From Phycisphaerae bacterium (GTDB lineage: Bacteria; Planctomycetota; Phycisphaerae; UBA1845; Fen-1342), in assembly GCA_022072445.1 (NCBI GenBank), contig JAJVHV010000030.1, positions 5,971 through 69,970 on the forward strand: a stretch of DNA of 64,000 nt, given 5' to 3'. This document shows positions 6,603 through 64,000 of the stretch, piece after piece (the first letter of the stretch is position 1; the number at the start of each line of letters is the position of its first letter). A program made the translations under genes and the position numbers. The notes under the pieces were generated by a model. It saw only the letters and a program-made list of their open reading frames with translations, had not been told where the DNA came from and ran no database searches.

Positions 6603-9359
6603 CTAGTGTGCGACCGCTCCAATCCCATCGACGATGAGCTGGAGCGGATCGCCGATCGGCAACACGAACAGGTCGGCGTTGACCAGCTCGTTGCGCAGCG
6701 GCAGCGGGCCGGGGCCGTCGAAGTCGATCGGCGCCTCGACGTTGTGGATGCTGCCGAACACCAGGTTCAGCAGCGCCAGCGACATGAACGGGTTGACGCG
6801 CGTCGCGCCGTTCAGCGCGTTGGCACCGTTGAAGAACTCCGGCGGTGCGAAGGCGGCCAGCAGGTTGACCGTCACGTTGGGCCGGCCGAAACGGAACGCG
6901 TTCAGGCGCGGCTTGAGGTTGCGGGCCACCAGCGCGACGCCGTTCAGCAGCTTCGGCGTGCTCGCCTGCCAGTCGATGTCCTGTGGTGCCGGGAAGCCGT
7001 TGTTGTCGGCGCGGCGGTAGTAGCGTTCGACGAACGTGGAGCGCCAATCGGCCGGGTTGTGCAGGAATTCGCGGAAGTCGAAGACCGGCTCGCCGGCATC
7101 CTGGACGTTGTTGTTATTGAAATCATCGTAGTACGGCGCGCCGTCCGCATCGTAGCCCGGGTTGGCGACGTGCGTGCCGAAGAAGTGCGTCGAGGTCTCG
7201 GGCGCCAGCGTGATGCCCAGAATGGCGGTCGGCGAGATCAGGACGTTGGTCGTCTCGTCGCCTGGCGTAAGCTGCAGCGGGGCGCCGTTGGGGCTGATGA
7301 GCTGGAAGAATCCGGTGCTGTTCGAATCGGGCAGGAACATCACAAAGTACGTGCCCTCGGGGTTGTACGTCGCCACACCCTCGACAAAGTCAACCTGCAC
7401 CGGTTCGCCGTCCGGGCCGAACTGATCCATCAGCACAAAGGCGCTGAAGTTCGGCGGGTTGGTCTCCGGATCGGCCGGCTGGCTGGGATCGAAGTCGGGG
7501 TTCTGAATCCGCAACGCGGGTGCGCCCGGATAGCCCGTGAACGTCTGGGAGAACGCGTCGCCAAACGCCTCGCCATTGACCGTCTCGAACACGGATCCGT
7601 CCATGACGTCGACGATCTGGCGAATACCCTTGCGATTGTGCAGCGGCCGGCCATTGCGACGATCGATGAACTCGACGGCCTGCCCACCCGGCGTCGGGTT
7701 GGCAAATCCGAGGAAGTAGCCGCCGGTGCCGTTACTAATGAAGCGGGCGCTGCTGACGCTGCCGTTGCTGTCCTGAATGATGTCGACGGTGACCGGCGCG
7801 GCGTTGGGGTTCTGGAAGCCGTCCTCGGTGGCCAGGGCGAAAACCTGCGCGGGACCGGAGCGGCTGAACGGCAAATGCGCACGCTGCGCGCGGATGAAGC
7901 GCGCGAACTCGTCCAGGCTGGGAACGCGATCCAGCAGGATACCGGCGTAGATCTCGTCGAACGACGGCTCGGCAGTCGGCGCGAGGAAGTCAATCATCAG
8001 CTTGCGCACGTCGGCCTTGTGCTGCTCGAAGTTGCCGTCGAAGTTAAACATGCCCAGCATCTGAATCTGCTCGTGCAGCAGACCCAGGTTGACCTCGACC
8101 GGGTTGCCGTCGATGCCCAGGAACACCTCGCTGGGCGGTTCGCCCGGGCCATTCGGCCGGACGAACATATAGCGCGCCCCCATGCCGTACTCGAGGTTCA
8201 CGACGATCGCGTGCAGCCCCGACAGGTCGATCGTCTTGCCGTCGAGGAAGAGCTGCGCGAGCTGCGTCAGGATGTGCTCGGAGAAAATCGGCCCGCGGCC
8301 CGGACCGCCGCTCAGATCCTCTTCCGGGAAATTGCGGTCAAACTCGCTGATCGTGGAGTAGTAGAGATCTGGACCCGTAACCGGCACACCCTGTGCCGCG
8401 TCGTCGCCGTGCTCAAAGTGAAAATCCTGGAACGCGACCTTCTGCACCGCCGGCAGCGAACCCAGGAACGAGAGGTCGATGCCGCCCGCGTCGTCGGCGA
8501 TCACGAACCCGCCGCGCAGCATGATCTGCGCCGCGGCCACGACCACGTCGTCAACCGTGTCGGCCTGCGAAAGCTGCACGTTCGCCGCCGCCATGTCCAT
8601 CGCGCGTCGGGCGGCGTCGGGAATAACCGTGTCGAAGAGCGAAGCGAGCACGTCGTCGGCCAGACCCAGCAGCTCGTCGATCGTGATCTCCTCATCTACG
8701 CCCGAATCGCTGAAGAGATTCTCGAACGCGTCGCGGATGCGCGCGACCAGGCCAGAAAGGCTCAGCTCGAATTCGCGCGGGTCGAGGCCGACCGAGACGA
8801 GCATCGCGCGAATCTTGGCGTGAATCAGCGTGCTCAGCGGGTCGACCACGACGCCCGTCAGCGCACCGTCGGTCGAGTTCTCAGTCGCTGGAATGTTGAC
8901 GATCGTCTTCAGGTCGGCGTCCCCGTCGCCGTCAAAGTCCACGTTCAGCACGATGTCCACACCGACCGGCAGTCCGGAAACGCTGAACGACCCGTCGGTT
9001 GCGATACTGAAGCTGGGATACGGCTCGCCGTTGGCGTCGAGCAGCGCGTCGCCATTGAGATCGGTGAACCACCCGGTGGCGTTCGTTGCGATCGCGCGGG
9101 AACGGAGCTTTCGCGCGGACGGGGAATCGCCGGCGTCGCTGGTGGTGGAAACGGAGTCCACGTTACCGCTCACGGAGCCGCCAAAACTCAGCGCCGTTGA
9201 CGAAACGTCGCCCGCCGCCCCGTCGGTCGAGCCACCCGTGCCGTCCGTCGTGCCGCCCGTGCCGTCGTCATCGCCGTCGTTGTTCCCCTGCTGCGGGCAG
9301 CCGGCAAGCAGCAGGCAGACCGCGAGGGGGGTGATTGCGTGAAGCCACCATCTGGTCAT
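6603..9359 (-). CDS. large lipoprotein of unknown function
   Basis: ORF 6603..9626; probable start ATG 9359 (MTRWWLHAITPLAVCLLLAGC lipobox), then an Asp/Gly/Thr-rich linker. No catalytic motif recognised. Confidence 0.65.
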   Translation of the reverse strand: MTRWWLHAITPLAVCLLLAGCPQQGNNDGDDDGTGGTTDGTGGSTDGAAGDVSSTALSFGGSVSGNVDSVSTTSDAGDSPSARKLRSRAIATNATGWFTDLNGDALLDANGEPYPSFSIATDGSFSVSGLPVGVDIVLNVDFDGDGDADLKTIVNIPATENSTDGALTGVVVDPLSTLIHAKIRAMLVSVGLDPREFELSLSGLVARIRDAFENLFSDSGVDEEITIDELLGLADDVLASLFDTVIPDAARRAMDMAAANVQLSQADTVDDVVVAAAQIMLRGGFVIADDAGGIDLSFLGSLPAVQKVAFQDFHFEHGDDAAQGVPVTGPDLYYSTISEFDRNFPEEDLSGGPGRGPIFSEHILTQLAQLFLDGKTIDLSGLHAIVVNLEYGMGARYMFVRPNGPGEPPSEVFLGIDGNPVEVNLGLLHEQIQMLGMFNFDGNFEQHKADVRKLMIDFLAPTAEPSFDEIYAGILLDRVPSLDEFARFIRAQRAHLPFSRSGPAQVFALATEDGFQNPNAAPVTVDIIQDSNGSVSSARFISNGTGGYFLGFANPTPGGQAVEFIDRRNGRPLHNRKGIRQIVDVMDGSVFETVNGEAFGDAFSQTFTGYPGAPALRIQNPDFDPSQPADPETNPPNFSAFVLMDQFGPDGEPVQVDFVEGVATYNPEGTYFVMFLPDSNSTGFFQLISPNGAPLQLTPGDETTNVLISPTAILGITLAPETSTHFFGTHVANPGYDADGAPYYDDFNNNNVQDAGEPVFDFREFLHNPADWRSTFVERYYRRADNNGFPAPQDIDWQASTPKLLNGVALVARNLKPRLNAFRFGRPNVTVNLLAAFAPPEFFNGANALNGATRVNPFMSLALLNLVFGSIHNVEAPIDFDGPGPLPLRNELVNADLFVLPIGDPLQLIVDGIGAVAH

Positions 9360-56671: not shown

Positions 56672-57079
56672 ATGGAAACGTCCCCCGGCATCCTGGGTCG
56701 ATTGTCCGAAAAAGTGCTCGGTTGGATCGCGCTGGGCCTGCTCGTCGCGCTGGGAATCGCCATCTGGCAGACCCCCGCCGACACCAAGCAGGCCATCTGG
56801 AGTGGCGTCTGGCGCGCCACGGCGTGGCTTGCGATCGTCGCGACGTTGCCCTGGGCCAGCCGCCTCTTCATGGGTCGCGTGCTGGAGCAATCGTCGAACT
56901 GGGCCGGGGTGGCGCTGGTCGCCGCTTACTGCCTGGCGGACGTGATCGCGGCGGTGTGCCTGATGACGGTCTGGCCGGCGAGCGGTTGGGCCTGGTTCCT
57001 GAGCGCCGTCGCGCTGGCCATCGCAGGGACGTATAATTATCTGGTTTGCGAGTATGTCGCGGAACAATCGGGCCTATGA
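56672..57079 (+). CDS. small integral membrane protein
   Basis: Four hydrophobic helices (WIALGLLVALGIAIW, WLAIVATLPW, GVALVAAYCLADVIAAVCLM, AWFLSAVALAIAG). Confidence 0.6.
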   Translation: METSPGILGRLSEKVLGWIALGLLVALGIAIWQTPADTKQAIWSGVWRATAWLAIVATLPWASRLFMGRVLEQSSNWAGVALVAAYCLADVIAAVCLMTVWPASGWAWFLSAVALAIAGTYNYLVCEYVAEQSGL

Positions 57080-57122
57080 AGCCGATCTGTGAACAATGCG
57101 GGCGGCTTTGCGGGGTCGAGCG

Positions 57123-58196
57123 ATGAGCACGAAATATCAGACCGGGCTGCGCGTCAGCGAATACGTACTGGAAGAATGCGTCGGCAGCGGCGCGTTCGCC
57201 GAGGTTTGGCGCGCCCGGCATCACATTTGGGAGTCCGAACAGGTCGCGGTGAAACTGCCGCTCCAGCCCGAATTCGCGCGCTATCTGCGGCGCGAGGGCG
57301 CGGTGGTCCACGGCGTGCGGCACGCCAACGTCGTGCGCGTCCTGGGGATCGACCCGTACGGCGAGATTCCGTATCTGGTCATGGAGCTGGTGCGCGGTCC
57401 GTCGCTCAAAAGCGTGATCGTCGAGCATCGCACCGGCGTGCCGGTCGACCTGGCGCTGCGCGTTTTCCGCGGCATCCTGACCGGGTTGGCGGCCGCGCAC
57501 GAAGCGAATGTGATTCACCGCGACATCAAGCCGGGCAACATCCTGCTCGATCTCAATGGCAAGCCGCTGTCGGAGCTGCGCAGCGAGCAGGTGAAGCTGG
57601 GCGACTTCGGCTTCGGGCTGGCCGACGTCGACGCCATGCAGTCGATCGCGCAGTCGGCGTCGATCAGCCGCTCCGACGCTCTGGTCGGAACGATCGCGTA
57701 CATGGCCCCGGAGCTGCGCGACGGGCACGCGGCAGCCGACGAGAAGTCCGACCTGTACGCCGTCGGGGTGGTGCTCTTTGAGCTGCTGACCGGCGAGCGG
57801 CCGGCCGGCGCCGAGCTGCCCAGCAGTGTCCGGCCGGCGATCAGCCCGGCGCTCGACGAGCTATTCAAGAAACTCTATGCGCGGCACGACCGCCGCTACG
57901 CCTCGGCCAACGCCGTGCTGCACGACCTGGACGCGCGGGTGCCCGCCCCCGACGGGGCGCCCGGCGCGCCGCACCTGCCGCCCTTGCCCGAGTCGGGCCG
58001 CCCGCGTTCGTCGCGGGCGAACTGGACGTGCGGCTCGTGCCATCGGCCGGCCGATCCGGCCGACCAGTTCTGCATCCACTGCGGGGCCCAACTGGTCGAG
58101 CGCGTGCGGCGTTGTCCGGGCTGCGATGGGTTTCCCGGCGTGGACGATCGATTCTGCATTTTTTGCGGCGCGTCGCTGCCGCCCGTGACCACGTGA
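57123..58196 (+). CDS. Ser/Thr protein kinase with C-terminal double Zn ribbon
   Basis: ORF 57096..58196. GSGAFAEVWRA..VAVKLP, HRDIKPGNILLD, DFG, GTIAYMAPE. C-terminus CGSC..CIHCG and CPGC..CIFCG. Confidence 0.9.
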   Translation: MSTKYQTGLRVSEYVLEECVGSGAFAEVWRARHHIWESEQVAVKLPLQPEFARYLRREGAVVHGVRHANVVRVLGIDPYGEIPYLVMELVRGPSLKSVIVEHRTGVPVDLALRVFRGILTGLAAAHEANVIHRDIKPGNILLDLNGKPLSELRSEQVKLGDFGFGLADVDAMQSIAQSASISRSDALVGTIAYMAPELRDGHAAADEKSDLYAVGVVLFELLTGERPAGAELPSSVRPAISPALDELFKKLYARHDRRYASANAVLHDLDARVPAPDGAPGAPHLPPLPESGRPRSSRANWTCGSCHRPADPADQFCIHCGAQLVERVRRCPGCDGFPGVDDRFCIFCGASLPPVTT

Positions 58197-58207
58197 GGTG
58201 ACGCGCG

Positions 58208-58504
58208 ATGCACGGCCAAGGCGTCATTGTCCTCTGGGTTTTCGGCCTGCTGTTCGTCGGCGTCATCGGCATCGCCATGCTGGTGCTTGTCGCCGTTCTG
58301 CGCGCCGGCGGCAGGATTTTCCGGCACGTCGGTTTGGCCATGGGCGAGACCGGCGGCCGCGGGTCGGCCCCCTCGGGTGCCGCGGGCCGGCCGCGCTTCT
58401 GCACGCGGCGCGGCTGCCTGCATCCCAACCGCGGCGCGGCCCGCTTCTGCGCCCGCTGTGGTCAGGCGCTCGGCGGCGGGTACGATACGGAACTGTATGG
58501 ATGA
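58208..58504 (+). CDS. small TM protein with cytoplasmic Zn ribbon
   Basis: VIVLWVFGLLFVGVIGIAMLVLVAVL helix, then CTRRGCLHPNRGAARFCARCG. The 3' end overlaps the next gene by 8 nt. Confidence 0.6.
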   Translation: MHGQGVIVLWVFGLLFVGVIGIAMLVLVAVLRAGGRIFRHVGLAMGETGGRGSAPSGAAGRPRFCTRRGCLHPNRGAARFCARCGQALGGGYDTELYG

Positions 58505-59969
58505 GATCGCGCGACAGCGGCAGTTTGAGGAGCAGTTCCTCCAGCAGATCCGCGCCAAGGCCGCCGGCCTGACGCGCGGCACCCTGCCCGCCGACCGCGT
58601 CGTCGTCGAAAAGGTGCCCGACGGCATCGACGGCGTGCGGGCCACGCTGAGCCGCCTGGAGGTCTTCGATCACGAGCTGCTGCACCGCATGCCGGGCACG
58701 CAGGCCTGCCAGCTCAAGTTCACACGCTCGATGCTCGGCGGCCTGATGGAGCGGACCGTCTCGCGGCTGCGGGCCGTCGTGCTCGCGCCGGTCGCCGCGC
58801 TGGCCACCGGTCAGGCGCCCGGACCGGTGACCCGCGAGGACGTGCTCAACGCGCTGGCTCGCTACGACCTGATGCCGCGCGGCATGAGACCCACCGGCGT
58901 GGTCTTCGCCGCGCCCACCGGCTTCAGCGACAGCGCCCGCTCGCTGGTGAACGGGCCCGGTTCGCCTACGGTGATTCTGATGGGCGGCCGGGCCGACGGC
59001 GGCTGGGACGTGAGCATGTCCGATGCGGTCGCGAAGAGTCCCTGGGGCAAGCTCTTCGAGCTCGAAACGCAGGACGAGCTGGTCAAGCGCCTCGCGCATC
59101 ATCTCGACGAGTCCGCCGACCTCGTCGATTCTCGCGGACTGTCGATCGAGGAGCTGAGCGAGAAACTCGGCGTGGACCGCGACAAGACCGAGACCCTGGT
59201 GCGCAAACTGGCCCGCACCGACCCGCGCATCATGACCGTCGCCCACGACGGCCGAACGCACGTGTGCCGTACACCCTTCGCCGAGGAGGGCTCTTCCATG
59301 AGTCTCTGGAGCCGAGTTCGCAGACTGCTGCGGCTGAAGCCGACCGTCGCCGAGCAGGTGCGCGAGATGACCGCGCAGCGCGTCAAGCTGGAGCAGCAGC
59401 GCTTCGAGATCGACCGCGCGGTCAACAAGCTCCAGGACGAAGAGGTGCGCATCGTCAAGAGCGGGGCCGCCGCCACCACCGACGTCGAAAAACGCCAGCT
59501 TGCCAGCAAGCTCGTGCGCCTGCGGCGCGACCTGGGCCGGCAAAAGGCCCAGGCCGACGTGCTCACCAAACAGATCGACATCATCGGCACGCACCTGCAC
59601 CATCTGACGCTGGCCGAGCGCGGGCGCCGCATGGAACTGCCCAAGGCCGAGGAGCTGACGCGCGAGGCGGCCCAGGCCGAACAGGTCATGGCCGATCTCT
59701 CGGCCAACGCCGAACTGGCCGTGGGCATCGAAGTTGGCGGCGGGGCGCAGGCCGTGTCGGATGAGGAAGCGGCGATCCTCGAAGAATTCGCGGCGGCGGC
59801 GGGGACGACGCCGGTGAAGGAAACGCCCGCGGCGGCGCCGGCGGCGGGCGAATCGGGACGGGTGGCGGATGCCGGCCGGTCAGGCCCGGTCCGCGCACCC
59901 AGCGCAGCGCCGCCGGTGCCTGGTGCGGCGGCGTCGAAGCGTGAGTCGGCGAAGCCGGAGATGGGGTAG
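58497..59969 (+). CDS. fusion protein: unknown N-terminal domain + wHTH-like segment + C-terminal ESCRT-III/Snf7-like coiled coil
   Basis: ORF 58227..59969; start ATG 58497 (MDEIARQRQFEE). C-terminal half SLWSRVRRLLRLKPTVAEQVREMTAQRVKLEQQRFEIDRAVNKLQDEE..LVRLRRDLGRQKAQADVL is paralogous to 60721..61326. Confidence 0.65.
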   Translation: MDEIARQRQFEEQFLQQIRAKAAGLTRGTLPADRVVVEKVPDGIDGVRATLSRLEVFDHELLHRMPGTQACQLKFTRSMLGGLMERTVSRLRAVVLAPVAALATGQAPGPVTREDVLNALARYDLMPRGMRPTGVVFAAPTGFSDSARSLVNGPGSPTVILMGGRADGGWDVSMSDAVAKSPWGKLFELETQDELVKRLAHHLDESADLVDSRGLSIEELSEKLGVDRDKTETLVRKLARTDPRIMTVAHDGRTHVCRTPFAEEGSSMSLWSRVRRLLRLKPTVAEQVREMTAQRVKLEQQRFEIDRAVNKLQDEEVRIVKSGAAATTDVEKRQLASKLVRLRRDLGRQKAQADVLTKQIDIIGTHLHHLTLAERGRRMELPKAEELTREAAQAEQVMADLSANAELAVGIEVGGGAQAVSDEEAAILEEFAAAAGTTPVKETPAAAPAAGESGRVADAGRSGPVRAPSAAPPVPGAAASKRESAKPEMG

Positions 59970-59985
59970 AGGGTTTGCAGAGGCG

Positions 59986-60351
59986 ATGGACATGGCAAGT
60001 GCGCTGCCCACAGAGCTGCTGTTGCGTAAGCCCGTCGGCGAAGAAACTCTGCGTGAGCTTGTTCGCCGCATCGCCCAGCTTCGTAGCGACGCTTGCATCA
60101 TTCTGTTTGGGTCGCGGGCGCGCGGGGACGCACGGCCGGGGAGCGATCTTGATCTGATGGTTATCACGCAGGCGGATCGGAGTCCGCTGGCGATCGCGGG
60201 CGATCTCTACGCGGCACTGGCGGACCGTGATTTCGGGTTAGATATCGTCGTCATGCCGCGCGACCGCGTGCGGCGGGCACGAGACGGGTTCGATCCTTTT
60301 CTGAACGAGGTGCTCGCACAAGGCAGAGTCCTGCATGGCCGACTGCATTGA
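59986..60351 (+). CDS. minimal nucleotidyltransferase (MNT/MntA-type antitoxin), pair 1
   Basis: ORF 59869..60351; start ATG 59986. ILFGSRARGDARPGSDLDLMV (GSxxxGxxxxxSDxDL). Confidence 0.85.
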   Translation: MDMASALPTELLLRKPVGEETLRELVRRIAQLRSDACIILFGSRARGDARPGSDLDLMVITQADRSPLAIAGDLYAALADRDFGLDIVVMPRDRVRRARDGFDPFLNEVLAQGRVLHGRLH

Positions 60352-60724
60352 CTTTGAAGACTGGCTGGCCAAAGCGGAGGGAGATCGAGAAGGCGCCATG
60401 CTGCTGATGCGCGAATTCAGCAAATCTATCGCCGGCCTGATTGCCTTTTTGTGTCAGCAGTCGGTGGAGAAGTACCTCAAGGCGCTCCTGGTGCGTCAAC
60501 GAGTCTCTTTTCCTCGTACGCATGACCTGGCGGCGCTTGCGGCAGGCAGCTATCCGGACATCGCTCGAATTCAGCCATCGCTCGCGCGACTTCAGCCGTA
60601 TGCGGTTAATGTGCGATACCCTGGATTTGATCCGGAGCGCCCCGAATGCGAAGAGGCGATCGGCCATCTGGAACGAGTCCGGTCACATTGCCGCGAGCTG
60701 CTCGAATTGGGTGAGTGCGAATGA
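60335..60724 (+). CDS. HEPN-domain protein (HepT-type toxin), pair 1
   Basis: Overlaps the MNT gene by 17 nt. QQSVEKYLKALL..FPRTHDLAAL..AVNVRYP HEPN pattern. Confidence 0.85.
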   Translation: MADCIDFEDWLAKAEGDREGAMLLMREFSKSIAGLIAFLCQQSVEKYLKALLVRQRVSFPRTHDLAALAAGSYPDIARIQPSLARLQPYAVNVRYPGFDPERPECEEAIGHLERVRSHCRELLELGECE

Positions 60725-61326
60725 ACTTCTTCACCTGGCTGACGACCAAACGCAAGACGCTCGCGACGATGAGCGCCGCCGAGCTGCGCGCCCAGGAGAT
60801 GATGCTCGAGAACGAGCGCGACCGCATGCTGAAGCGCATGGAGAAGCTGGCCGGCGAGAAGCACCAGGTGATCGAGCGCGGCGCGAAGGAACGCACGCCC
60901 GAGCTGCGTAAGACCTACGCGCAGCAGTTCGACCTGCTGCACACCGAGCAGATGATGCTCAGCCGGCACCTGAACATCCGCAGCAAGGAGCTGCTGACCG
61001 TCTCGCGGCTGCGCATGCTGCGCGAGACGGCCCAGCGGGCCGGCACCGGCATGGGTGCGTTCGGCACGATTCGCGAAAAGGATCTGGCGGTGATCGAGGC
61101 CCTGATCGAGAACGACAAGGTCACCACCGACATGTACCAGGAGCGGCTCGACGCGATCCTGCAGATCGGCGCGGCGGCGGACGAGGAGGCGACCGGCCTT
61201 TCGGCGGCGGCGGGCGAGCTGCTCAAGGTCTGGAACGACATGGACGCCGGGCTGATCTCCAACACGGCCGAAGCGTTCGACGAGGCGGAGAAGCGGGTGC
61301 GTGAGAGAAACAGAGCAGCGGAGTAG
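60721..61326 (+). CDS. ESCRT-III/Snf7-like coiled-coil protein (paralogue 2)
   Basis: ORF 60715..61326. ATG 60721 forms an ATGA overlap with the HEPN stop. The ~200-aa helical protein has a basic N-terminus, long heptad hairpin pattern and acidic C-terminal part. The family call is by eye only. Confidence 0.55.
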   Translation: MNFFTWLTTKRKTLATMSAAELRAQEMMLENERDRMLKRMEKLAGEKHQVIERGAKERTPELRKTYAQQFDLLHTEQMMLSRHLNIRSKELLTVSRLRMLRETAQRAGTGMGAFGTIREKDLAVIEALIENDKVTTDMYQERLDAILQIGAAADEEATGLSAAAGELLKVWNDMDAGLISNTAEAFDEAEKRVRERNRAAE

Positions 61327-61332
61327 CCTCAT

Positions 61333-61701
61333 ATGCAACGACGCCCGAACCAGCGCGAAAACCGCGAGGCGCTCCGCGGCCCGATTGACAATCGCGTCAT
61401 TGGACAAATCGTAGACCGCTTGTCCAAGCGGTTGCCGGACTGCTGCATTGTGCTTTTCGGCTCCCGGGCCTACGGAACGCCGACCAGCCAGAGTGACGTT
61501 GATCTGCTGGTGGTGGCCCCGTCGCAACGTGACCCGTACGTGCTCTGCGGCGAACTACATCGCGAACTCAGTCCACGGGATTTCTCCGTTGATCTACTGG
61601 TCATGACGCCCGAGACTTTTCGTCAGCGCCGCTCACGGTTTGATCCGTTTTTTGCAGAACTCACCTCAAAGGGCCGCGTCCTGCATGGTCATCTCCCCTG
61701 A
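61333..61701 (+). CDS. minimal nucleotidyltransferase (MNT), pair 2
   Basis: VLFGSRAYGTPTSQSDVDLLVV. Paralogous to pair 1 through the C-terminal KGRVLHG. Confidence 0.85.
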   Translation: MQRRPNQRENREALRGPIDNRVIGQIVDRLSKRLPDCCIVLFGSRAYGTPTSQSDVDLLVVAPSQRDPYVLCGELHRELSPRDFSVDLLVMTPETFRQRRSRFDPFFAELTSKGRVLHGHLP

Positions 61702-62071
61702 TGCGGCGGAATGGGTCGATCGCGCCGAAGGGGACGTGCGCGCGCTTCGGAAGCTCGACCCAGTCGAGGATCGTGTCGTCGTGGCGTTTCTCGCTCAGCA
61801 GGCCGCGGAGAAGTACCTGAAGGCCACTCTGGTCAACAGCCGGATATGCTTTCCAAAACCACACGACTTGGTCGCGCTCGTCTCCCTGTGTCGGCAGATC
61901 AGTGATGAATTCGAGTCGTTGGTGGGCGCTGCCGCCGTGTTGCAGCCCTTTGCGGTGGACGTGCGATATCCCGGACCCGCCCCCGGAGAGGCCGCCGTGC
62001 GGGCGGCGATTGAGAATATGGACGTGATCCGAACCTTTTGCCGCGAGAGGCTTGCGCTGCAAGCGCCCTGA
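61685..62071 (+). CDS. HEPN-domain protein, pair 2
   Basis: ORF 61640..62071; start ATG 61685 gives a 17-nt overlap with the MNT gene. QQAAEKYLKATL..FPKPHDLVAL..AVDVRYP. Confidence 0.85.
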   Translation: MVISPDAAEWVDRAEGDVRALRKLDPVEDRVVVAFLAQQAAEKYLKATLVNSRICFPKPHDLVALVSLCRQISDEFESLVGAAAVLQPFAVDVRYPGPAPGEAAVRAAIENMDVIRTFCRERLALQAP

Positions 62072-62095
62072 ACGGCGATCACGCGGAGATGTACG

Positions 62096-62713
62096 ATGGC
62101 CCTATTCAAGTCAAAAGAAGAGCGCCGCATCGAGCAGGACATCAAGATCCGCCAGGGCATCCGCCGGATCGAGAAGTCCATCAGCGAGCAGAGCAAGTTC
62201 ACCGACGAGTTCGTGAAGAACGCCCGGCATGCGAAACAGATCGGCGACAACGGGCAGTATGTCTTCATCCGCAACTCGCTCAAGAAGACCGCCACCATCA
62301 AGAAGCTGCTCGAACGGCAGCTTCTGAGCGTCAAAAACGCGCTGCTGATCAAACGCCAGGCCGAGGCCTCGGCCGATTTCGCCAACGCCATGAGCCTGAT
62401 GGCCCGCGAAGTGGGCAAGCTCTACGGCGACACCGATCTCGTGAAGACGCAGACCGACTGGGAGAAGGCGCTGCTGCAGAGCCAGACGATGGAGGAGCGC
62501 ATGCAGATGTTCCTCGATTCGATCGAAAGCGGCGCCGCGGCCGACATCGCCGCCTCGCCGACGGCCGCCGAAGCGATCAGCGACGACGAGATCGACCGCA
62601 TGATCGCGGTTGAGGAGCAGGTGGAGAAGGCGAAGGAGACGCAGCAGATGTCGGCGCTGCGGGCGGAGCTGGCGGAGCTGAAGGGGGAGAGTAAGGATAA
62701 GGAGACGAAGTGA
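62096..62713 (+). CDS. ESCRT-III/Snf7-like coiled-coil protein (paralogue 3)
   Basis: GGAG 8 nt upstream of the ATG. MALFKSKEERRIEQDIKIRQGIRRIEKSI.., FANAMSLMAREVGKL, acidic ISDDEIDRMIAVEE, terminal amphipathic helix LRAELAELK. By eye it aligns along its length with CHMP2/Vps2-type proteins. Confidence 0.6.
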   Translation: MALFKSKEERRIEQDIKIRQGIRRIEKSISEQSKFTDEFVKNARHAKQIGDNGQYVFIRNSLKKTATIKKLLERQLLSVKNALLIKRQAEASADFANAMSLMAREVGKLYGDTDLVKTQTDWEKALLQSQTMEERMQMFLDSIESGAAADIAASPTAAEAISDDEIDRMIAVEEQVEKAKETQQMSALRAELAELKGESKDKETK

Positions 62714-62850: not shown

Positions 62851-63549
62851 GTGAGAGCATTGCCGATTAAGCCGCAGAAGTGGTTAGAGATGCTTGCTGA
62901 GGACTTGGTGCGCGACATCACGTCCAACCACTCGTTGCGCAGGTACACGACAAACGCGGATCTGCTTGGGGCGTGGGCTGAAGCGTGCGTACGAAACCTG
63001 ATTGCTCGCATGGTTCATCCGCTGCGAGTCTCACGCGGTGCGATCGTTTACGAAGGCATTTGCCCGGACGAAGTCCCAGAGCTGGATGCCATCGTGTGGA
63101 CCGCCGCACCCGTGCCGGCGGTCTTCGATCTTGGCGACTTTGCAATAGTACCGCGCGGCTCGGCCGTTGCTTTTCTTGAAGTCAAGCGAAGCGCGTACAC
63201 CGGCGTAAGCGACCGGATGCGCAAGACGCTCAACGGTACTGAGTGTCTCATCACACATTGCGAGCAAGAAAAGGGAACGCGCTTGGACGGAGAGGCTCTG
63301 GGTGTCGTCTGCATGAAGAGAGAGGACCAGAAACTCGACCGCACACTCCAAAGGCTCATGGACGACCAGAAGGCTGTTCTGCTCCTTGAGGAGAAGAATG
63401 GGTCCTGGAGGGCCATGGCGAGGGACGTACTTCGGCTTGTGAACTTTCTCGCGGCGGTGCGGGTCCGTGCGTTCGTCCTTGCATCCCAGCTCGGCGTAAA
63501 CACCGAGATTCTGGCTCCGGTACTAGGTAGCGACGGGACAGCGTCATGA
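62851..63549 (+). CDS. PD-(D/E)xK nuclease-fold-like protein of unknown function
   Basis: GTG start (alternative ATG 62890). VPELDAIVW ... AVAFLEVKRS gives a D...E-x-K arrangement. The stop forms an ATGA overlap with the MNT pair 3 start. Confidence 0.5.
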   Translation: MRALPIKPQKWLEMLAEDLVRDITSNHSLRRYTTNADLLGAWAEACVRNLIARMVHPLRVSRGAIVYEGICPDEVPELDAIVWTAAPVPAVFDLGDFAIVPRGSAVAFLEVKRSAYTGVSDRMRKTLNGTECLITHCEQEKGTRLDGEALGVVCMKREDQKLDRTLQRLMDDQKAVLLLEEKNGSWRAMARDVLRLVNFLAAVRVRAFVLASQLGVNTEILAPVLGSDGTAS

Positions 63550-63887
63550 TCGGTATCTGCACGCCCGTTCGAGTCACCGACGAACGGATCGCCGAAGTCG
63601 TGCGCCGCCTGGTCGAGGCGTTGCATCCGCAGCGCATCTACCTCTTCGGCTCGCATGCCTACGGAACGCCTCACGCGGACAGCGACGTCGACCTCCTTGT
63701 GCTGGTTGATGACGCCGAGCTGACGCAGGACGATCATGACCAGCGCGGCTATCGCTCTCTGCGCGGGATGTTTCTACCCATCGAGCTGCACATTCGAGGT
63801 CGGCAGGCGTTCGAACGGCGCGCGGTCGCTCCTCACAGTTTCGAGAACGAGATCCTGCGAAAGGGCAAGCTGCTCTATGCCGCGTGA
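63546..63887 (+). CDS. minimal nucleotidyltransferase (MNT), pair 3
   Basis: YLFGSHAYGTPHADSDVDLLVLV. Confidence 0.85.
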   Translation: MIGICTPVRVTDERIAEVVRRLVEALHPQRIYLFGSHAYGTPHADSDVDLLVLVDDAELTQDDHDQRGYRSLRGMFLPIELHIRGRQAFERRAVAPHSFENEILRKGKLLYAA

Positions 63888-64000
63888 TCCCGCTCTCATA
63901 CGCGAGTGGCTGCAGAAGGCCCGAAACGACCTCGAGACCGCGCGGCGCGCGATGGCCGAGAAGCCCATTCTCGATACCGGGTGCTTTCATTGCCAGCAGG
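63877..64000 (+). CDS. HEPN-domain protein, pair 3 (5' part, truncated by the window end)
   Basis: ATG 63877 lies inside the MNT 3' end. MPRDPALIREWLQKARNDLETARRAM matches the N-termini of HEPN 1 and 2 (..DWLAKAEGD.., ..EWVDRAEGD..). Confidence 0.7.
   Translation, partial: MPRDPALIREWLQKARNDLETARRAMAEKPILDTGCFHCQQ

What the first reader, a model, noticed from the sequence alone, without database searches (positions are those of the whole stretch)
59986..62713. A three-gene unit MNT - HEPN - Snf7-like occurs twice in tandem
Unit 1 (59986-61326) and unit 2 (61333-62713) have the same order, orientation and sizes: MNT ~121 aa, HEPN ~128 aa overlapping it by 17 nt, then a ~200-aa Snf7-like protein. 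Only 6 nt separate the units. In unit 1 the HEPN stop and the Snf7-like start share ATGA. The paralogues are clearly diverged, so this is an old duplication or a repeated recruitment, not a recent copy. There are two possible readings. Selfish HEPN-MNT modules may have repeatedly colonised the spacers of an ESCRT-III-like operon. Alternatively, the coiled-coil protein may be a genuine third component of a HEPN-MNT system, for example coupling RNase activation to membrane remodelling or abortive infection. I am not aware that the second arrangement has been described.
Basis: partly seen in the sequence, partly recalled or inferred. Interest (0 to 1): 0.75.

Follow-up and report, generated by a model that had tools for sequence, protein, structure and literature searches.

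The report
Toxin-antitoxin pairs nested in ESCRT-like operon
The apparent "duplicated three-gene unit" is really three unrelated copies of an ordinary MNT-HEPN toxin-antitoxin pair wedged into the gene junctions of a conserved Phycisphaerae operon, and that operon is the more interesting part, because it encodes an ESCRT-III (Snf7/CHMP)-like protein and a Vps4/Cdc48-like ATPase in bacteria that divide without FtsZ.

Summary
MNT and HEPN are confirmed twice by Pfam. The pairs are 42% and 39% identical.

The "unit" is not a duplicated three-gene system:
- The two ~200-aa proteins show no relationship, even in profile-profile comparison.
- In 80 related species they are neighbours in one conserved operon: membrane protein, Ser/Thr kinase, Zn-ribbon protein, p490, coil1, coil2, AAA+ ATPase.
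- 59 of those 80 species have no MNT-HEPN there.
- The closest relative (87-88% nt identity) lacks the unit-1 pair.

The window carries three class II HEPN/MNT cassettes of separate ancestry, one before coil1, one before coil2 and one before the ATPase. The third is partly outside the window.

Only coil2 is demonstrably Snf7/CHMP-like. Coil1 is a helical-hairpin protein paralogous to the C-terminal domain of p490.

The "third component" reading is not.

One point remains unexplained. All 26 MNT genes in 1.29 Mb of surveyed DNA lie in these junctions and are co-oriented with the operon. Their lineages are specific to this operon.

The host operon is a candidate membrane-remodelling or division machine in FtsZ-less bacteria, and is worth following up.

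The parts
56672..57079 (+). First gene of the conserved host operon: 135-aa predicted membrane protein, no family match
   Evidence: Found upstream of the kinase in relatives L001, L003, L166 and L174. No Pfam or NCBIfam hit. GC3 0.83.
57096..58196 (+). Ser/Thr protein kinase with a C-terminal double zinc ribbon (host operon)
   Evidence: Pfam Pkinase 7e-37, DZR 6e-6. Syntenic in about 70 of the 80 species loci.
58208..58504 (+). 98-aa protein with a hydrophobic N-terminus and a 4-Cys zinc-ribbon motif (host operon)
   Evidence: NCBIfam 4Cys_prefix_kin domain 2.8e-5. Conserved position in relatives.
58497..59969 (+). p490: unknown N-terminal domain, weak HTH/wHTH signals, and a C-terminal helical-hairpin domain paralogous to coil1 (host operon)
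   Evidence: hhalign of coil1 family against the p490 C-domain: probability 86%, E 5e-6, in register from residue 1. Weak HTH hits, and one member hits Snf7 at 0.008. Start codon inferred from relatives (490-aa products).
59982..60720 (+). Junction-A cassette block: 739 nt absent from the closest relative, where a 118-nt non-aligning stretch (within a 129-nt p490-coil1 spacer) stands instead
   Evidence: blastn of window against L166 (87-88% identity): homology stops at 59981 and resumes exactly at the coil1 ATG, 60721.
59986..60351 (+). MNT1: minimal nucleotidyltransferase, presumed antitoxin, GSX10DXD motif intact
   Evidence: Pfam NTP_transf_2 1.3e-10. G-S...D-x-D invariant in 20 relatives. 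GC3 0.67.
60335..60724 (+). HEPN1: PF05168-type HEPN protein (class II HEPN/MNT, presumed toxin)
   Evidence: Pfam HEPN 2.8e-19. Invariant residues, in HEPN2 numbering: E42/K43/K46, H60, R94-Y95. GC3 0.62.
60721..61326 (+). coil1: 201-aa helical-hairpin protein of the host operon, with an N-terminal hydrophobic helix. Not shown to be Snf7-like.
   Evidence: 453 homologues at 68-96% identity in Phycisphaerae/Planctomycetota. AlphaFold pLDDT 76, hairpin H19-56/H60-107. No specific fold or family match. GC3 0.94.
61333..61701 (+). MNT2: minimal nucleotidyltransferase of the junction-B cassette
   Evidence: Pfam NTP_transf_2 6e-10. Orthologous cassette in L166; the concatenated MNT+HEPN pair is 89% identical.
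61685..62071 (+). HEPN2: PF05168-type HEPN protein of the junction-B cassette
   Evidence: Pfam HEPN 2.3e-18. The closest non-orthologous pair sits at junction A in another genome (L167, 63% for the concatenated pair, nearest in 999 of 1000 bootstraps).
62096..62713 (+). coil2: 205-aa Snf7/CHMP-type ESCRT-III-like protein of the host operon
   Evidence: 1848 homologues. Broad profile against PDB: CHMP2A 8.7e-5, CHMP3, Snf7, CHMP1B, CdvB2. Foldseek top hits CdvB/CdvB2/CHMP2A-3. Distant relatives hit Pfam Snf7. GC3 0.90.
62851..63549 (+). Unknown 219-232-aa gene inserted between coil2 and the third cassette (the gene caller starts it at 62890)
   Evidence: No homologue in the other surveyed loci. 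Only weak PD-(D/E)xK-like PADLOC hits, E 0.013. GC3 0.68.
63546..63887 (+). MNT3: minimal nucleotidyltransferase of the junction-D cassette
   Evidence: Pfam NTP_transf_2 3e-10. Groups with the cassettes found after coil2 in 15-16 other species.
63877..64000 (+). HEPN3, cut by the window end. It is 141 aa on the same organism's contig L174, and the AAA+ ATPase gene follows 2 nt later.
   Evidence: L174 has the same gene order as the window and encodes an identical coil2. HEPN at 7429-7854 (Pfam 9e-26); AAA ATPase at 7857-8999.

Best explanation
The stretch belongs to a conserved Phycisphaerae operon: membrane protein, Ser/Thr kinase, Zn-ribbon protein, p490, coil1, coil2 (Snf7/CHMP-type ESCRT-III-like), then a single-domain AAA+ ATPase of the Vps4/Cdc48 kind.

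Three class II HEPN/MNT toxin-antitoxin cassettes of separate ancestry sit in its junctions, one each before coil1, coil2 and the ATPase.

Each cassette is a self-contained two-gene module. By analogy with characterised HepT/MntA systems, I infer that the MNT (intact GSX10DXD motif) nucleotidylates the invariant tyrosine of its HEPN partner and so keeps it harmless.

The gaps are 16, -4, 6, 24, -4 and 2 nt, which leaves no room for separate promoters or terminators. I therefore infer that the cassettes are transcribed with the operon. They would persist because losing them is penalised and because co-oriented insertion in these spacers is tolerated.

The coiled-coil proteins do not need the cassettes and are not components of them.

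Shown: gene identities, the conserved cassette-free operon, patchy and variable cassette positions, separate cassette lineages.
Inferred: co-transcription, toxicity and neutralisation chemistry, and the reason for persistence.
For: 1. Operon without cassettes. RAS1 and other genomes have kinase-ZnR-p490-coil1-coil2 with gaps of 5-30 nt. Among 80 species loci, 59 have no MNT. Junction A is empty in 61 of 69, junction B holds an MNT in only 3 of 74, and the coil2|ATPase junction is directly adjacent in 17 of 55.
2. coil1 and coil2 are distinct, strongly conserved families (68-96% and 76-100% identity among the hits listed) with no mutual similarity.
3. The sister genome L166 (87-88% nt identity) has only the junction-B pair. 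The window's 59982-60720 takes the place of 118 nt of its p490-coil1 spacer.
4. Cassette ancestry, from concatenated MNT+HEPN identity: window A against B is 38%, and D against A or B is 29-30%. A's nearest relative is L006 at junction B (887 of 1000 bootstraps). B's nearest non-orthologue is L167 at junction A (999 of 1000).
5. Cassette genes have GC3 of 0.62-0.75 against 0.83-0.94 for operon genes. GC3 is lower than the neighbouring coil2 in 50 of 50 comparisons across genomes.
6. MNT G-S...D-x-D and HEPN H60/R94/Y95 are invariant. Class II (PF05168) pairs with GSX10DXD and a conserved Tyr are described in PMC7641770.
7. Relatives of the pairs at 30-45% identity sit in unrelated contexts without coil genes.
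8. The same junctions also hold unrelated small genes: PF05635 in 24 of 74, plus zinc-ribbon and TM2 genes.
Against: Placement is much more specific than a generic selfish element predicts.
- All 26 MNT genes in 1.29 Mb of surveyed DNA lie in the operon zone (26% of the DNA) and on the operon strand. None is found elsewhere even at E<=10.
- Every HEPN2 relative at >=60% identity whose context could be seen is in this operon.
- The post-coil2 cassette clade spans both deep branches of the host tree, which suggests long retention.
- No insertion mechanism is visible: no flanking repeats or att-like sites.

Other limits:
- Toxicity of PF05168-type HEPN proteins, and their chemistry, is not established. 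They lack RX4H (PMC7641770, PMC3710099).
- The trees are neighbour-joining without full bootstrap.
- My MNT and HEPN profiles were built from these cassettes and could miss other subfamilies in the flanks.
Confidence: 0.72

Rival explanations
1. Accessory coupling. An operon-specific lineage of class II HEPN-MNT pairs has been recruited as a guard or regulator of the ESCRT-III-like/AAA machinery. For example, it might sense disturbed expression or assembly of the machinery during phage attack or envelope stress and respond with HEPN-mediated growth arrest. This is a weakened form of the reader's second reading.
For: 26 of 26 MNT genes lie in the three junctions and are co-oriented, with none in the +-10 kb flanks. 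The close HEPN2 relatives whose context could be seen are all in this operon. Spacing is tight or overlapping. 21 of 80 species carry at least one pair, and the post-coil2 clade occurs in both deep host clades. Catalytic residues are under purifying selection.
Against: 59 of 80 species lack any pair. Sister genomes differ (L017/L015, L021/L025, window/L166). The junction used is not fixed, and one lineage occupies different junctions in different genomes. Coil proteins are equally conserved with or without pairs. Unrelated small genes use the same junctions. Lower GC3 marks the pairs as compositionally foreign.
Confidence: 0.18
2. Tandem duplication of an ancestral three-gene unit (MNT-HEPN-coiled-coil) followed by divergence.
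For: Same gene order, orientation and sizes in both units. The MNT and HEPN pairs are homologous.
Against: coil1 and coil2 have no detectable homology. They are adjacent without pairs in most relatives. The two pairs are each other's most distant relatives within the intra-operon clade, at 38%. L166 has only one pair. DNA repeats between the units are limited to motif-coding stretches of 50-64 nt at 72-74% identity.
Confidence: 0.03
3. The whole operon is itself a mobile defence or conflict system, and the pairs are part of a defence island around it.
For: Distant relatives of coil2 are fused to FtsK/SpoIIIE, NERD, AAA and STAND NTPase domains typical of conflict systems. The kinase matches PADLOC kinase models. 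Other toxin-antitoxin genes (ParE/antitoxin, DUF2442) lie downstream in RAS1.
Against: The operon is syntenic and highly conserved in every surveyed species locus, with native-like GC3 of 0.83-0.94. That is the pattern of a core function, not of patchy defence islands. The PADLOC kinase hits reflect generic kinase similarity.
Confidence: 0.07

Closest known systems
Class II HEPN/MNT toxin-antitoxin pairs (PF05168 HEPN + PF01909 MNT), relatives of the type VII HepT/MntA system
   Same: The MNT gene is upstream and overlaps the HEPN gene. MNT carries GSX10DXD. HEPN carries a conserved C-terminal tyrosine. Proteins are small (about 120 and 130 aa). This matches the description of class II pairs in PMC7641770 and of the HEPN-T family in PMC3710099.
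   Different: The pairs are embedded in the junctions of a conserved operon, with 2-24 nt gaps or overlaps and no room for their own promoter. Their lineages appear specific to that operon. The RX4HXY RNase motif of characterised HepT (DUF86) is absent, so the toxin chemistry is unknown.
Archaeal Cdv / eukaryotic ESCRT-III-Vps4 systems (CdvB, CHMP2-3, Snf7 plus the CdvC/Vps4 ATPase)
   Same: The coil2 family profile hits CHMP2A, CHMP3, Snf7, CHMP1B and CdvB2. Foldseek's top hits are CdvB/CdvB2. The predicted structure is an alpha1-alpha2 hairpin plus shorter helices. The next conserved gene downstream (adjacent in relatives, after the third cassette here) is a single-domain AAA+ ATPase collinear with CdvC, with a Vps4_C helix above the Pfam cut-off.
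   Different: The host is bacterial. No MIT domain, CdvA or ESCRT-II was detected. The ATPase scores equally well as Cdc48-D2-like, and is below the curated cut-offs for both. Coil1 and p490 have no demonstrated ESCRT-III membership. The operon also holds a Ser/Thr kinase and zinc-ribbon proteins.
Bacterial PspA/Vipp1 (IM30) ESCRT-III superfamily members
   Same: Bacterial helical-hairpin proteins of about 200-220 aa with an N-terminal amphipathic helix. They belong to the ESCRT-III superfamily (PMC8281802).
   Different: No PspA_IM30 Pfam hit for coil1 or coil2. In the PDB the coil2 profile matches CHMP/Snf7/CdvB rather than PspA/Vipp1. There are no pspBC/pspF partners.
23S rRNA intervening-sequence / four-helix-bundle proteins (PF05635)
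   Same: These are small genes that occupy the coil1|coil2 junction in 24 of 74 related species, exactly where the window has MNT2-HEPN2.
   Different: They are not present in the window. No detectable relation to HEPN (hhalign probability 4%). Single gene, function unknown.

Membership tests
HEPN/MNT toxin-antitoxin (class II, PF05168 + PF01909) | MNT protein of the NTP_transf_2 family with the GSX10DXD motif | tested here: met
   Pfam 1e-10 to 6e-10 for MNT1-3. G43, S44, D55 and D57 are invariant in 20 sequences. The motif can be read directly in the sequence.
HEPN/MNT toxin-antitoxin (class II, PF05168 + PF01909) | Adjacent downstream HEPN-domain protein (PF05168), with MNT in the 5' position | tested here: met
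   Pfam HEPN 3e-19, 2e-18 and 9e-26. The MNT stop overlaps the HEPN start by 17 nt in units 1 and 2 and by 11 nt in the third pair.
HEPN/MNT toxin-antitoxin (class II, PF05168 + PF01909) | Conserved tyrosine in the C-terminal part of HEPN (acceptor of nucleotidylation) | tested here: met
   R94-Y95 is invariant in 23 sequences. That this Tyr is modified is inference from PMC7641770 and PMC3710099.
HepT/MntA type VII toxin-antitoxin (class I, DUF86) | RX4HXY RNase motif in the toxin | tested here: not met
   No RX4H adjacent to the conserved Tyr. The invariant His (H60) is 34 residues upstream of R94-Y95. The family is PF05168, not PF01934.
HEPN/MNT toxin-antitoxin (any class) | HEPN is toxic and is neutralised by its cognate MNT | not testable with these tools
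   Needs expression and rescue assays.
ESCRT-III superfamily, Snf7/CHMP/CdvB type (coil2) | Sequence-profile homology to Snf7/CHMP families | tested here: met
   Broad family profile A5 against PDB: CHMP2A 8.7e-5, CHMP3 8.7e-4, Snf7 2.2e-3. All of the top eight hits are ESCRT-III. Seven of 61 distant relatives hit Pfam Snf7, best 5.5e-5. The window protein alone gives no hit.
ESCRT-III superfamily, Snf7/CHMP/CdvB type (coil2) | Alpha1-alpha2 hairpin followed by shorter helices (ESCRT-III core fold) | tested here: inconclusive
   AlphaFold model with pLDDT 74 has H7-49/H52-110 plus two further helices. Foldseek's top hits are CdvB/CdvB2/CHMP2A-3 with probability about 1, but E is only 0.03-0.3 and TM 0.33-0.49.
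ESCRT-III superfamily, Snf7/CHMP/CdvB type (coil2) | Polymerisation on membranes and remodelling by a Vps4-type ATPase (MIM-MIT contact) | not testable with these tools
   Only gene adjacency to an AAA+ ATPase is shown. No MIT domain was detected.
ESCRT-III superfamily (coil1) | Sequence or fold homology to ESCRT-III/PspA | tested here: inconclusive
Vps4/CdvC AAA+ ATPase (gene just beyond the window end) | Single classical AAA domain with a Vps4_C C-terminal helix; N-terminal MIT domain | tested here: inconclusive
   AAA 1.5e-39, AAA_lid_3, and Vps4_C at 29.1 bits against a cut-off of 21.3. NCBIfam CdvC 240 bits (cut-off 650) against CDC48 242 bits. Isolated C-terminal region: p97 best, katanin 1e-11, CdvC 4e-9. 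No MIT hit.

The most novel reading that the evidence does not exclude
The host operon is a bacterial ESCRT-III/Vps4-type membrane-remodelling machine: a Snf7/CHMP-like protein, two related hairpin proteins, an AAA+ ATPase and a Ser/Thr kinase. It may drive FtsZ-independent binary fission in Phycisphaerae. The operon-specific HEPN-MNT cassettes would then be more than passengers: they would monitor the expression or integrity of this machinery and arrest growth when it is disturbed.
Probability: 0.1. Interest if true: 0.9.

Novelty: new variant of a known kind. Interest (0 to 1): 0.62.

Why it matters
The pairs themselves are ordinary class II HEPN/MNT modules. Two things are not ordinary.

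1. Toxin-antitoxin cassettes living as promoter-less passengers inside the junctions of one conserved operon. Their lineages seem confined to that operon and hop between its junctions. This is an unusual life-style for such modules. It gives a clean natural system for studying how addiction modules invade and persist in core operons.

2. The operon they mark encodes a Snf7/CHMP-type ESCRT-III-like protein next to a Vps4/Cdc48-like ATPase in Phycisphaerae. These bacteria divide by binary fission without FtsZ, and what drives their division is an open question (PMC6952346, PMC12673574). [quoted passage not shown] If the operon remodels membranes, it is a directly testable candidate for that missing machinery.

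Tried and rejected
1. Direct family assignment of coil1 and coil2 with Pfam, NCBIfam, PADLOC and PDB sequence searches of the single proteins and of close-homologue profiles: no hits. Only a profile widened with distant representatives worked, and only for coil2.
2. Coil1/coil2 paralogy, tested by BLASTP and by three hhalign runs with increasingly broad profiles: rejected.
It shows that distant relatives live elsewhere but says nothing about the close lineage.
5. Relation between the PF05635 junction genes and HEPN: hhalign probability 4%, rejected.
6. Deciding gain against loss of the junction-A pair by comparing the L166 spacer with other spacers: scores were within the shuffle range, so uninformative.
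7. Search for flanking direct or inverted repeats or att-like sites around the cassettes: none beyond motif-coding similarity.
8. Sigma-70 promoter and terminator scan: no promoter-like sites, terminator-like sites not above chance, and the consensus may not apply to this phylum.
9. Assigning the ATPase firmly to Vps4 rather than Cdc48: unresolved.

Full report
**1. Observation**

The window is high-GC DNA (about 67%) from a Phycisphaerae metagenome-assembled genome. The coil2 protein is 100% identical to NCBI's CHACPFDD_03409.

| Gene | Coordinates | Length |
|---|---|---|
| MNT1 | 59986-60351 | 121 aa |
| HEPN1 | 60335-60724 | 129 aa |
| coil1 | 60721-61326 | 201 aa |
| MNT2 | 61333-61701 | 122 aa |
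| HEPN2 | 61685-62071 | 128 aa |
| coil2 | 62096-62713 | 205 aa |

- Pfam confirms NTP_transf_2 and HEPN (PF05168) in both units.
- The MNTs are 42% identical and the HEPNs 39%, so the pairs are real but old paralogues.
- At the DNA level only motif-coding stretches of 50-64 nt still align, at 72-74% identity.

**2. The third genes are not a repeated gene**

- BLASTP finds nothing between coil1 and coil2.
- Profile-profile comparison of the two families gives probability 0.15%. With broader profiles it gives 1.0% and 1.7%.
- Each is a separate, strongly conserved family. Coil1 has 453 database hits, with 68-96% identity among the 120 listed. Coil2 has 1848 hits, with 76-100% identity among those listed. 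Nearly all named hits are Phycisphaerae or Planctomycetota.

*Coil2 is Snf7-like.*
- The window protein and close-homologue profiles hit nothing.
- A search of 1.84 billion representative proteins with the family profile found 333 clusters.
- Seven of 61 distant full-length relatives hit Pfam Snf7.
- A profile of 49 diverse members hits CHMP2A (8.7e-5), CHMP3 (8.7e-4), Snf7 (2e-3), CHMP1B, CdvB2 and CdvB in the PDB. There are no competing families above them.
- The AlphaFold model (pLDDT 74) has a long hairpin plus two further helices. Its best Foldseek hits are CdvB, CdvB2 and CHMP2A-CHMP3.

*Coil1 is not shown to be Snf7-like.*
- The model has pLDDT 76, with a hairpin and an N-terminal hydrophobic helix.
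- It gives only generic hairpin matches and no profile hits.
- It is instead paralogous to the C-terminal domain of the upstream 490-aa protein (hhalign 86%, E 5e-6, in register from residue 1).

**3. What the surroundings are**

Gene neighbourhoods of homologues show a compact operon: membrane protein, Ser/Thr kinase with double zinc ribbon, about 95-aa zinc-ribbon protein, about 490-aa protein, coil1, coil2. There is no MNT or HEPN inside it. These neighbourhoods come from strain RAS1, a 426-kb contig and others.

I fetched 80 species-level loci anchored on coil2 and mapped all components.

A Pfam scan of the ORFs downstream of coil2 showed a further conserved gene. Thirty of 150 ORFs are AAA ATPases, and 26 of them carry a Vps4_C domain. 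This ATPase follows coil2 in at least 55 of 69 loci with enough flank.

The same organism's contig L174 extends past the window end. It reads coil2, 219-aa unknown gene, MNT3, HEPN3 (141 aa), then 2 nt later a 380-aa AAA+ ATPase.
- The ATPase has AAA, AAA_lid_3 and Vps4_C above Pfam's cut-off.
- It is collinear with the CdvC model (240 bits).
- It scores equally as Cdc48-D2-like (242 bits), and both scores are below the curated cut-offs.
- No MIT domain was found.
- I therefore call it Vps4/Cdc48-like and do not assign it further.

**4. Where the MNT-HEPN pairs sit in relatives**

I built MNT, HEPN and PF05635 profiles from the loci and searched all ORFs.

| Junction | Loci where it can be seen | With MNT(-HEPN) | Other content |
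|---|---|---|---|
| A (p490\|coil1) | 69 | 3 | 5 other inserts, 61 empty |
| B (coil1\|coil2) | 74 | 3 | 24 PF05635 four-helix-bundle gene, 21 other inserts (7 with a zinc-ribbon gene), 26 empty |
| D (coil2\|ATPase) | 55 | 15 | 23 other inserts, 17 adjacent |

- The PF05635 assignment was confirmed at 1e-30.
- 21 of the 80 species have at least one pair; 59 have none.
- The distribution on a neighbour-joining tree of p490+coil1+coil2 is patchy. Sister taxa differ: L017 against L015, L021 against L025, L044/L031 against L033.
- The closest relative of the window, L166 (87-88% nt identity), has the junction-B pair but not the junction-A pair.
- Homology between the two stops at window position 59981 and resumes exactly at the coil1 start codon, 60721. 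So 739 nt of cassette stand in place of 118 nt of the L166 p490-coil1 spacer.
- I could not decide whether this is a gain in the window or a loss in L166.

**5. Ancestry of the cassettes**

The MNT and HEPN trees agree with each other. They split into a clade found after coil2 and an 'intra-operon' clade in which junctions A and B are mixed.

Concatenated MNT+HEPN identities make the point directly:
- Window A against window B is 38%, the lowest value in the intra-operon clade.
- Window A is nearest to L006 at junction B (49%; nearest in 887 of 1000 column bootstraps, never window B).
- Window B is 89% identical to its orthologue in L166. Its next nearest relative is L167 at junction A (63%; 999 of 1000).
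- The window's third pair is 29-30% identical to the other two and 41-48% identical to other post-coil2 pairs.

The three pairs in the window are therefore three lineages, not local copies. One lineage can occupy different junctions in different genomes.

**6. Composition**

- Operon genes have GC3 of 0.83-0.94.
- MNT1, HEPN1, MNT2, HEPN2, the unknown gene and MNT3 have GC3 of 0.62-0.75.
- Across all loci the cassette GC3 is lower than that of the neighbouring coil2 in 50 of 50 comparisons (mean 0.72 against 0.88).
- This fits foreign origin or weaker codon adaptation.

**7. What kind of pair**

- The HEPN is PF05168, the HEPN-T family of Anantharaman et al. (PMC3710099). It belongs to the 'class II' HEPN/MNT pairs of Yao et al. 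(PMC7641770).
- In class II pairs the MNT keeps GSX10DXD and the HEPN keeps a conserved tyrosine, but the RX4H RNase motif of characterised HepT is absent.
- Here G-S...D-x-D is invariant in 20 MNTs.
- E42/K43/K46, H60 and R94-Y95 are invariant in 23 HEPNs, so the pairs are under purifying selection.
- Neutralisation by tyrosine nucleotidylation is inference by analogy.

**8. Verdict on the two readings**

- Relatives mostly lack the pairs.
- Positions vary.
- Cassette trees do not follow junction or host.

Distant relatives of the pairs (30-45% identity) sit in unrelated neighbourhoods with no coil genes. That holds for 80 of 80 metagenome loci and for two further contigs. I therefore favour nested, self-contained toxin-antitoxin cassettes (confidence about 0.7).

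**9. What remains odd**

- All 26 MNT genes in 1.29 Mb of surveyed DNA lie in the operon zone, which is 26% of that DNA, and on the operon strand. None is found in the flanks even at E<=10.
- The events are not independent, and my profiles derive from these cassettes. Even so, with only eight independent events the chance of this placement is about 2e-5.
- Every HEPN2 relative at >=60% identity whose context could be seen is in this operon.
- No repeats or att-like sites flank the cassettes.
- Tolerance of these spacers to small co-oriented genes, together with addiction, explains persistence. It does not fully explain the specificity. An accessory role (rival, about 0.18) is not excluded.

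**10. Comparison with the literature**

[quoted passage not shown] They note sporadic bacterial Snf7 homologues and transferred Vps4-like ATPases, but none in Planctomycetes (PMC8281802, PMC11237479, PMC7619361).
- A 2025 review of Planctomycetota does not mention ESCRT. It states that the phylum divides without FtsZ by unknown means (PMC12673574).
- PMC6952346 asks explicitly what drives binary fission in Phycisphaerae.
- Full-text searches for ESCRT with Phycisphaerae, and for HEPN with ESCRT-III, found nothing relevant.
- Within the library I could search, neither the operon nor its colonisation by HEPN-MNT pairs has been described. Absence from this library is not proof of novelty.

**11. 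Scores**

- The pairs are new members of a known kind. Their nested, operon-specific habit, and the bacterial Snf7-type/AAA operon they mark, make the whole a new variant of known kinds.
- Interest is 0.62: moderate for the cassettes alone, raised by the host operon's bearing on FtsZ-less division.

Noticed in passing
window 56672-62713, continuing beyond the window end (L174:7857-8999): A conserved Phycisphaerae operon: membrane protein, Ser/Thr kinase+DZR, Zn-ribbon protein, p490, coil1, Snf7/CHMP-like coil2, and a Vps4/Cdc48-like AAA+ ATPase (present after coil2 in at least 55 of 69 species loci). It is a candidate ESCRT-III/Vps4-type machine in FtsZ-less bacteria and is not mentioned in the reviews I read.
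   Followed up: partly
L009:4533-4958, L044:9455-9928 and 22 other loci (coil1|coil2 junction): In 24 of 74 related species the junction that holds MNT2-HEPN2 in the window instead holds a 23S_rRNA_IVP / four-helix-bundle gene (PF05635, E 1e-30). No detectable relation to HEPN (hhalign 4%). Its role there is unknown.
   Followed up: partly
window 62851-63549: A 219-232-aa gene between coil2 and MNT3 with low GC3 (0.68). It has no homologue in the other surveyed loci and only weak PD-(D/E)xK/NucC-like PADLOC hits (E 0.013-0.07). Possibly another inserted nuclease-like gene.
   Followed up: partly
distant relatives of coil2 (P0282, P0296, P0347, P0354 and others): Some distant members of the coil2 family are 420-800 aa fusions. 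Pfam finds FtsK_SpoIIIE in 7 of 61, and also NERD, AAA and STAND-type NTPase domains. This suggests Snf7-like domains are also used in other, possibly conflict-related, bacterial systems.
   Followed up: no
L084:3604-4179, L063:9073-9903 and five other loci (coil1|coil2 junction); ORFs after coil2 in several loci: Other recurrent junction inserts: a 185-340-aa protein with a zinc-ribbon motif (7 loci), TM2-domain proteins (8 ORFs), and a ~230-aa protein of unknown family recurring after coil2 (for example L006:4412-5110).
   Followed up: no
L001:10318-10838 (strain RAS1, downstream of coil2): In RAS1 the region after coil2 carries a DUF2442 gene and a ParE/antitoxin pair instead of MNT-HEPN. 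No ATPase was seen within the flank. So the 3' side of the operon also attracts other toxin-antitoxin families.
   Followed up: no
window 60721-60726: The coil1 start is invariably Met-Asn (ATGAAC). Any upstream ORF in the -1 frame therefore ends in the ATGA overlap. The 'shared ATGA' follows from the coil1 sequence rather than being a signature of co-evolution.
   Followed up: yes
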